DNA from: Neoechinorhynchus agilis
Taxonomy: Eukaryota; Animalia; Acanthocephala
Direction of reading: 5' to 3'
NCBI GenBank assembly: GCA_051530055.1
Contig: CM121341.1
Location: 9,650,784-9,714,783, forward strand
DNA: 64,000 nucleotides
Shown here: positions 33,601 through 34,826 of the stretch, in pieces
Layout of the letters: the number at the start of each line of letters is the position of its first letter
How positions within the stretch are numbered: the stretch's first letter is position 1
The notes under the pieces: model-generated
What the model was told of the DNA's origin: nothing
Databases searched by the model: none
What the model saw: only the letters and a program-made list of their open reading frames with translations
Made by a program: the position numbers and the translations under genes

Positions 33601-34070
33601 GGTTATTCCCAGAGGTTCAATATGAAAGGTATGAGGCCCATCTGCGGGGCGAGGATTACTATTTCAGTAGGTTCGCTAGTGACGAACAATTTAAACCTCC
33701 TCAGATACCCTTTGCTGAACTGGTCTCGTTTGTGGCTGAGGTGCTCCAAACGGATTCAGATGTTGTGTTTCGAATCTGTAATCAATTGGATTCCGCTCGG
33801 TCGTTGACGGAATTCCCGATGGATGAGATGCAGCATCTGTCTGCCAAGGTGGAAGTGTCAGCAGAGATTGATGGTGAAGTGGTGGGCACAACCGGGGACA
33901 CGATTAATGCCAAGAAAGAAGTCCCAGCAGAATGCGCAGCAACCAAAGTTGCCCACGTTGCCGAGTCAACCTCGACCTCAGCAGCGCAATCAACCCAGGA
34001 GCTCACAAGGCGGGCGAGGAAGAGGAGGCGTAGGCGTACAGAAAAACTAACAACTATCCATGGACTTTGA
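30637..34070 (+). CDS. Endogenous viral element: nodavirus-like protein A (methyl/guanylyltransferase plus RdRp), interrupted by an 89-nt insert at ~32011-32099
   Basis: Capping domain HSHPMAAARR (31510), DVDYY, YTFIP, VDGGAVYEHELWDY. RdRp motif F FQKAETY..PRNIT, motif A TDFSRFDG (~32990), motif B SGSSDTSAMNS, motif C YGGDDG (33291), motif E FLGRIY. The true start is uncertain (30637 or ~31052). Confidence 0.92.
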
Positions 34071-34826
34071 ATTAAATGAGGACTGGTATGATTACCTTGA
34101 ATCAGACACCTTAACACTTGCGAGCCTCCAATCTGAATTCCCCGGGGAATCATGGGGACGTTTTACTTTAGGCGGCGGTTGACTCCAAGGACGTGATCTA
34201 TATCCCTGCTCAGGTTGGGGATGACAAAACGGCAGTGGCGGCAATGGGATTGGCTGTGAGTCGGGAGTTCCCATTCTCCCACGAAATGTTAGTGGCGACT
34301 ACCTGTTGGCCAGCGCTCAACAGGCCTCATATCGCGTACAACCGAAACCTCGATGTGGATCAGGACGTCGAGGACTTGCAACTCCCTTCAACAGTGCTCT
34401 GGGACATCTACTCTAGGCTGTGCCATTTCTACGATTGGTTCGACCTCTTTGACAACATGGTGCGGAGTGTATTCTTCGATGCAATACGAGTTGAAGGAAA
34501 GCCAGTTTACCGAGGTGTGAACGATTATGTGCAGCGTCCGCCACCCTCCGACCTCCGGGCGCTAGGCTTAGGACTCTTGATGGAGGGTATTGAACTTGGG
34601 GAAAGCACCCCTACACCGGACTCGTCAGCGCTATTTCGAGAAGCGGTGCTTCGGCACATCCTCGTATCTTCAACTTATGCGGAGGCAGCCCAGTGCAGTG
34701 GGTACCTTCACATCACACTCGGAATGGGCGAGAGATTCGTGAATCCTCTTTTATTGAGAGACTACAATTGTTCGCAAGGGAACGTTGTTCCACGAGTGGC
34801 TTCCGAACTTTGTAGGCGAGCCGGCT
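33907..34826 (+). pseudogene. Putative viral structural (capsid-like) ORF overlapping the RdRp 3' end in another frame, truncated by a CRE element
   Basis: ATG 33907 gives a basic Q/P/R/G arm (MPRKKSQQNAQQPK...GGRGRGG). TAA at 34048, the same frame continues (MDFELNEDWY...), then a 1-nt shift near 34170 leads into the 34193-34840 frame. Confidence 0.55.

What the first reader, a model, noticed from the sequence alone, without database searches (positions are those of the whole stretch)
33907..34826. Capsid-like ORF paired with a noda-like RdRp does not look like a jelly-roll
After a basic Q/P/R/G arm, the sequence (IYIP...AAMGLAVSREFPF...LWDIYSRLCHFYDWFDLF...PPPSDLRALGLGLLMEG) reads as largely helical. 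By eye it recalls L-A/totivirus-type dsRNA virus coats, which is my inference only. Nodaviruses use single jelly-roll capsids, so a toti-like shell on a noda-like replicase would indicate capsid-module exchange between distant RNA virus lineages.
Basis: inference. Interest (0 to 1): 0.72.

Follow-up and report, generated by a model that had tools for sequence, protein, structure and literature searches.

The report
Patchwork of RNA virus fossils
This is not a hybrid virus: a broken middle piece of a double-stranded-RNA virus coat gene lies beside a copy of an unrelated nodavirus-like genome in the DNA of what is likely a parasitic worm, where the pieces were likely stitched together after capture.

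Summary
The fold guess is right; the chimera is not supported. Window 34115-34825 is homologous to residues ~202-439 of 830-1100-aa coat proteins of toti-like dsRNA viruses. An intact homologue folds like L-A/L-BC/PcV capsids (pLDDT 74; Z 12-14). But the piece is only about a quarter of such a coat. It has an internal stop and is cut at 34826 by a LINE copy. The basic 'arm' (33907-34047) is in another frame, lies inside the RdRp ORF and belongs to the noda-like virus. A ~87%-identical 3.6-kb relative in 3 of 4 RNA-like runs matches up to 34036, then runs on ~600 nt with sequence unlike the toti piece. A third, 72-nt piece (34041-34112) sits between the two. 13 of 15 loci with this capsid carry a toti-type RdRp, none a noda-like one. 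Verdict: a mosaic endogenous viral element, likely in the acanthocephalan Neoechinorhynchus agilis. Side result: a probably still-circulating noda-like virus of this host.

The parts
30954..34036 (+). Endogenous copy of most of a noda-like virus genome (methyltransferase + RdRp). Left end approximate. Frame changes inside a palindromic stretch at ~32006-32130.
   Evidence: Pfam; PDB. A 3.6-kb contig of runs X2/X3 lies on 31082-34036 with a 128-nt looser end before it. The DNA run X1 contig lacks 32006-32094, so that break may be an assembly artefact.
33907..34036 (+). 5' part (43 codons, rich in Q/P/R/G) of an overlapping +1-frame ORF2 of the noda-like virus; likely the basic arm of its own capsid; cut at the junction
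   Evidence: No difference from the relative at 33907-33935. Differences move from RdRp third positions (9 of 12 upstream) to arm-frame third positions (6 of 10 inside), Fisher p 0.024-0.074 by contrast. The capsid role is inference.
34041..34112 (+). Third, unrelated 72-nt piece; supplies the stop codons of the arm (34048) and of the RdRp (34068-34070); origin unknown
   Evidence: Record 9 of run X3 (261 nt, depth 4.4) lies on 34041-34112 only, 7 differences, with loose ends on both sides. One contig in one run.
34115..34825 (+). Internal fragment (~237 codons, in-frame stop at 34169) of a Ghabrivirales (toti-like) capsid gene, matching residues ~202-439 of ~900
   Evidence: fold of homologue P0006; further diverged copies in the same organism (P0002-P0005; raised X1 depth)
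34826..37713 (-). Degraded non-LTR retrotransposon (RVT_1); its 3' end abuts and ends the capsid fragment
   Evidence: 93.5% to a second copy at 53702-56697, boundary exactly 34826; RVT_1 E 2.9e-13

Best explanation
The region is a mosaic endogenous viral element: most of a noda-like virus genome (to 34036), a 72-nt foreign piece and an internal quarter of a toti-like capsid gene lie end to end in host DNA beside a LINE, and were likely joined by retroelement reverse transcription with template switching or by later rearrangement in the host. The basic arm is the start of the noda-like virus's own overlapping ORF2, likely its capsid. The toti piece comes from a separate dsRNA virus whose capsid gene was captured more than once in this genome. 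It cannot make a shell: it lacks ~200 N-terminal and ~450 C-terminal residues and has an internal stop. If the locus does anything, it would be as a source of antiviral small RNAs (untested). Shown: the pieces, their bounds and their homologies. Inferred: how they were joined, the role of ORF2, any piRNA function.
For: Homology covers profile positions 190-430 of 853 only, with no other hit (iE under 1) in six frames of the window. Sister copy P0004 keeps the upstream capsid residues that the window lacks. 3.6-kb contigs in X2, X3 and X5 stop matching at 34036 and no part of them lies on 34037-34830 at 80% likeness. 34041-34112 occurs in another context in X3. 13 of 15 capsid-related loci have a downstream RdRP_4 ORF; the other 2 are short contigs with no second ORF; none is hit by the window's RdRp or methyltransferase. 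In DNA run X1 the noda part lies on one contig at flat depth 45.5 while the toti part draws several diverged contigs (summed depth up to 339). LINE boundary at 34826. Precedent: loci with EVEs of different virus families among transposon fragments in Aedes (10.1101/127498, passages); virus-retrotransposon recombination during reverse transcription (PMC6797480, passages). piRNAs and PIWI are retained in acanthocephalans (PMC12256650, passages).
Against: The adjacency is real in DNA run X1 (contigs 30528-34108 and 34079-34538 overlap), and all viral pieces have the same sense. X1 may be the source of the assembly. The third piece rests on one low-depth contig. I could not see the last ~600 nt of the relative, so a distant protein-level likeness to a toti coat there is not directly excluded. 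X2, X3 and X5 are one study and 'RNA' is the tool's guess. The mosquito precedent involves LTR elements; only non-LTR-type RVT_1 neighbours were seen here. No small-RNA data were examined.
Confidence: 0.9

Rival explanations
1. A real chimeric virus: a noda-like replicase that took up a toti-type T=1 coat, later endogenised and degraded.
For: Same strand, capsid homology begins ~45 nt after the RdRp stop; the adjacency is present in DNA contigs; module shuffling is common in RNA viruses (10.1101/451740, passages; PMC11596407, passages).
Against: The coat lacks its first ~200 residues, whose place is taken by the RdRp end and a foreign 72-nt piece. The 87%-identical relative continues differently and has only ~600 nt left, too little for a ~900-aa coat. 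13 of 13 related capsids found with a polymerase have RdRP_4.
Confidence: 0.03
2. Assembly chimera: the junctions were made by the assembler from repeats.
For: The toti piece is multi-copy; another spot in the same element (32006-32094) is missing from the X1 contig.
Against: One X1 contig runs without a difference from 32095 across 34036 and 34041 to 34108, and the next overlaps it and runs 34079-34538. X1 may be the same sample as the assembly.
Confidence: 0.04
3. A domesticated host gene: the 186-aa annotated protein P0001 is made and works, for example as a dominant-negative capsid fragment.
For: NCBI gene models exist at this and sister loci; 218 codons are open after the stop at 34169.
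Against: The model skips 12 conserved codons and ends in LINE sequence; sister copies are broken differently. No selection test could be run.
Confidence: 0.03

Closest known systems
Coat proteins of unclassified Totiviridae-related (Ghabrivirales) viruses: Erysiphales associated totivirus 24 (A0A6G9EMZ2, P0043); Umbelopsis ramanniana virus 5 ORF1 (WGM49140.1, P0009)
   Same: 28% identity over 235 and 178 residues; window row sits in a starred 12-row set with P0043 (100/99; 29 rows, P0004 left out as too short); L-A/L-BC/PcV-like fold for the family
   Different: Those are whole 830-1100-aa ORF1s before an RdRP_4 ORF on ~5-kb genomes; here a quarter-length broken fragment in host DNA with no toti RdRp in the window
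Dicistronic noda-like viruses (RdRp + S-domain capsid), e.g. contig L001 and those listed in PMC11596407
   Same: Noda methyltransferase + RdRp followed by an ORF2 with a basic N-terminal arm; L001 (35% RdRp identity) has PF00729 downstream (E 2.4e-22)
   Different: Here ORF2 overlaps the RdRp end and is cut after 43 codons; its fold is untested
Non-retroviral EVE clusters of Aedes mosquitoes
   Same: Fragments of viruses of different families in one orientation among retroelement remains (10.1101/127498, passages)
   Different: Acanthocephalan host; neighbours seen are non-LTR-type; piRNA output untested
Rhabdo-like EVEs of Pomphorhynchus laevis (PMC12548735, passages)
   Same: RNA-virus sequences in an acanthocephalan assembly
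   Different: Those are Mononegavirales RdRps; Neoechinorhynchus is not named in that paper's main text or its 2 supplements held as text

Membership tests
Ghabrivirales (toti/L-A-type) capsid protein | Sequence homology to coat proteins of toti-like dsRNA viruses | tested here: met
   17 hits at E<=0.001, 12 of them not from the host organism; named coats P0043, P0009. No Pfam coat family hit.
Ghabrivirales (toti/L-A-type) capsid protein | Alpha+beta L-A-like shell fold | tested here: met
   Tested on intact homologue P0006 (32% identity), not on the fragment: all 7 PDB hits at E<=0.001 are L-BC, L-A or PcV capsids; Z 14.3 (rmsd 4.7, 404 aligned) PcV, 13.8 (5.2, 468) L-BC, 12.4 (5.7, 478) L-A. 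The fragment alone gave pLDDT 31.6.
Ghabrivirales (toti/L-A-type) capsid protein | Full-length shell domain (~560 residues in the model) in an intact ORF | tested here: not met
   Only ~237 codons, internal stop, both ends missing
Toti-like virus genome | Capsid ORF followed by an RdRP_4 ORF | tested here: not met
   A LINE follows at 34826; relatives do have this layout, 13 of 15 loci
Noda-like virus | Noda methyltransferase plus RdRp (protein A) | tested here: met
Noda-like virus | Single jelly-roll capsid | not testable with these tools
   ORF2 is cut after 43 codons in the window; the rest exists only in run contigs that the tools do not hand over as loci
Chimeric virus (noda replicase + toti coat) | Both modules on one viral RNA | tested here: not met
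   The relative's contig leaves the window at 34036 in 3 of 3 runs that hold it; no noda RdRp in 15 capsid loci
Endogenous viral element | Present in host DNA, flanked by host or transposon sequence | tested here: met
   DNA run X1; kinase, MFS and RVT_1 neighbours; matching proteins on a 19.4-Mb contig
piRNA-cluster EVE | Source of antisense piRNAs | not testable with these tools
   No small-RNA run was listed

The most novel reading that the evidence does not exclude
The locus is a young multi-virus immune cassette: pieces of three or more RNA viruses stitched together in an acanthocephalan germ line, one of them ~87% identical to a noda-like virus still circulating in this host, and read into piRNAs that target it. 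It would be a matched virus-EVE pair for testing heritable antiviral memory outside arthropods.
Probability: 0.25. Interest if true: 0.6.

Novelty: new member of a known kind. Interest (0 to 1): 0.3.

Why it matters
It removes an apparent case of capsid exchange between distant virus phyla and shows how EVE mosaics mimic chimeric viruses. It adds noda-like and toti-like viruses to the thin record for thorny-headed worms: I found no report of them in searches and in papers read, which is a limited library. It gives a structural assignment (L-A-like shell) to a coat family without a Pfam model, and points to a probable live virus with a close endogenous copy.

Tried and rejected
Single-sequence fold of the fragment: pLDDT 31.6, unusable. 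Pfam and PDB sequence searches with the fragment or family profile: no coat hit. Fragment against viral contigs: nothing; alignment A1 too diverse to search. No run on record as RNA is listed. Run X4 did not show the 3.6-kb contig and X1 showed no second diverged noda copy; absence in contigs proves nothing. No jelly-roll capsid is listed among the fold matches shown; an unlisted family is not excluded by that. The motif search was built from the sequence itself, so its chance count is not a test. Earlier findings: none. Paper search returned nothing. Supplements of the bioRxiv papers were not available and those of PMC11596407 (Table S1, genome layouts) were not read; they may hold precedents for noda-like ORF2 types.

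Full report
Setting. The window is animal DNA with kinase, MFS-transporter and many RVT_1 fragments. The closest proteins to the finding carry the source label Neoechinorhynchus agilis, an acanthocephalan; one matches the window at 100% over its aligned stretch, and a neighbouring 785-aa ORF is identical to a protein on a 19.4-Mb contig.

Observation. ORF 34172-34840 holds the quoted peptides. Upstream lie a nodavirus methyltransferase (E 2.7e-48) and an RdRp (RdRP_3 E 3.7e-07) whose best solved relative is 8fm9 (E 2.6e-29). The arm starts at ATG 33907 and stops at 34048-34050. It lies wholly inside the RdRp ORF, in the +1 frame, and in a different frame from the helical part.

What the helical part is. 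A search of 1.84 billion representatives gave 17 hits at E<=0.001: 5 from the host organism and 12 others, of 298-1102 aa, matched at about residues 200-440. Named relatives are Umbelopsis ramanniana virus 5 ORF1, a putative coat of a Totiviridae-related clade (PMC9694724, abstract and passages), and the coat of Erysiphales associated totivirus 24. The fragment alone did not fold (pLDDT 31.6). Homologue P0006 (32% identical), folded with 30 rows, reached pLDDT 74.4 and pTM 0.63. All 7 PDB matches at E<=0.001 are L-BC, L-A or PcV capsids. The top 8 structural alignments are all dsRNA-virus shells: Z 14.3 for PcV, 13.8 for L-BC, 12.4 for L-A, rmsd 4.7-5.7 over 404-478 residues. BFVD matches are toti-like, fusagra-like and chryso-like proteins where named. 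The segment matching the window is mostly helical (117 helix, 16 strand of 238).

It is a fragment. A family profile matches the window only at 34112-34828, positions 190-430 of 853, through an in-frame stop at 34169 (the profile contains the window row, so the bounds matter, not the score). Sister copy P0004 keeps the capsid residues upstream of this point; the window does not. At 34826 the sequence becomes the 3' end of a LINE-like element that is 93.5% identical to a second copy at 53702-56697.

Its natural partner. I fetched 15 loci with related capsids (several are near-duplicates of one virus). 13 have a downstream RdRP_4 ORF. The other two are 2.0- and 2.8-kb contigs with no second ORF. 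The window's RdRp and methyltransferase hit none of them. The one locus found with the window's RdRp, L001 (35% identity), has an S-domain jelly-roll capsid with a basic arm. Dicistronic noda-like genomes with S-domain, A6 or ORFan second genes are in print (PMC11596407, passages); that paper's main text does not mention totiviruses.

The junctions. Five runs hold part of the stretch. In DNA run X1 the noda part lies on one contig (30528-34108, depth 45.5) that overlaps the next (34079-34538), so the adjacency is real in DNA, though X1 may be the assembly's own source. The toti part draws several diverged contigs. Runs X2, X3 and X5 (one study; 'RNA' is a guess) each hold a contig of 3611-3641 nt; in X2 and X3 it is about 87% alike over 31082-34036. 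All three stop matching at 34036, run on for about 600 nt, and lie nowhere on 34037-34830 at 80% likeness. X4 did not show this contig. Six hundred bases cannot hold a ~900-aa coat. A separate 261-nt contig in X3 lies on 34041-34112 alone, with unlike sequence on both sides. That points to a third piece between the two viruses, on the evidence of one low-depth contig.

The arm. Differences from the relative fall on RdRp third codon positions upstream of 33907 (9 of 12) but on arm-frame third positions inside it (6 of 10); none fall in 33907-33935. Fisher p is 0.024-0.030 for two contrasts and 0.074 for the third; it is one pairwise comparison, chosen after seeing the data. This suggests a real overlapping ORF2 of the noda-like virus, at most about 250 codons long. 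A small jelly-roll capsid with a basic arm is the likeliest identity (inference); a B2-like protein (recalled) is possible.

Mechanism. Shown: three viral or foreign pieces and a LINE end to end in host DNA. Inferred: capture of co-infecting viral RNAs by retroelement reverse transcriptase with template switching, or later rearrangement. Mosquito EVE loci mix virus families among transposon fragments (10.1101/127498, passages), and virus-retrotransposon recombinants form during reverse transcription (PMC6797480, passages). Acanthocephalans keep piRNAs and PIWI (PMC12256650, passages), so small-RNA use is plausible but untested.

Verdict. Mosaic EVE, confidence 0.9; true chimeric virus about 0.03. 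A new member of a known kind; interest 0.3. What is worth following is the 3.6-kb relative, probably a live virus, with its close endogenous copy. Papers seen only as search listings are not used as evidence; PMC12645703 was seen as abstract and outline only and is not used.

Noticed in passing
window 31082-34036; runs X2, X3, X5: A 3.6-kb contig about 87% identical to the endogenous noda-like copy, at depth 47-113 against 2-12 for other pieces in the same runs; probably a live noda-like virus of this host (RNA status is the tool's guess).
   Followed up: partly
window 34041-34112: The third piece has an A-run, CT, AACA..ATC and then an ATG at 34060 opening an acidic peptide; this recalls (from memory) a rhabdovirus gene junction before an L gene. 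Untested; the motif search was post hoc.
   Followed up: partly
window 30523-30950: In-frame stretch upstream of the noda-like part with a hydrophobic, membrane-like segment; an 86%-alike contig in X3 covers 30744-30945 only. May be a fragment of another virus's membrane protein. No Pfam or PDB match.
   Followed up: partly
window 32006-32130: Palindromic duplication where the replicase frame changes; 32006-32094 is absent from the X1 contig, so it may be an assembly artefact.
   Followed up: partly
window 27475-29889: 785-aa ORF of a multi-copy family (10 hits, 9 labelled N. agilis, 51-83% identity) with no convincing Pfam family; possibly an unclassified mobile element or another viral relic.
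   Followed up: partly
window 59547-64000: Tandem array of about 135-nt units, about 93% alike, running to the window end.
   Followed up: no
window 53093-56697 and 34826-37713: Two inverted copies of one LINE-like element, 93.5% identical; RVT_1 fragments at several other places.
   Followed up: no
L012 1-1038: A 346-aa frame with GDD upstream of the capsid ORF and no Pfam hit at E<=0.01; may be a permuted contig.
   Followed up: no
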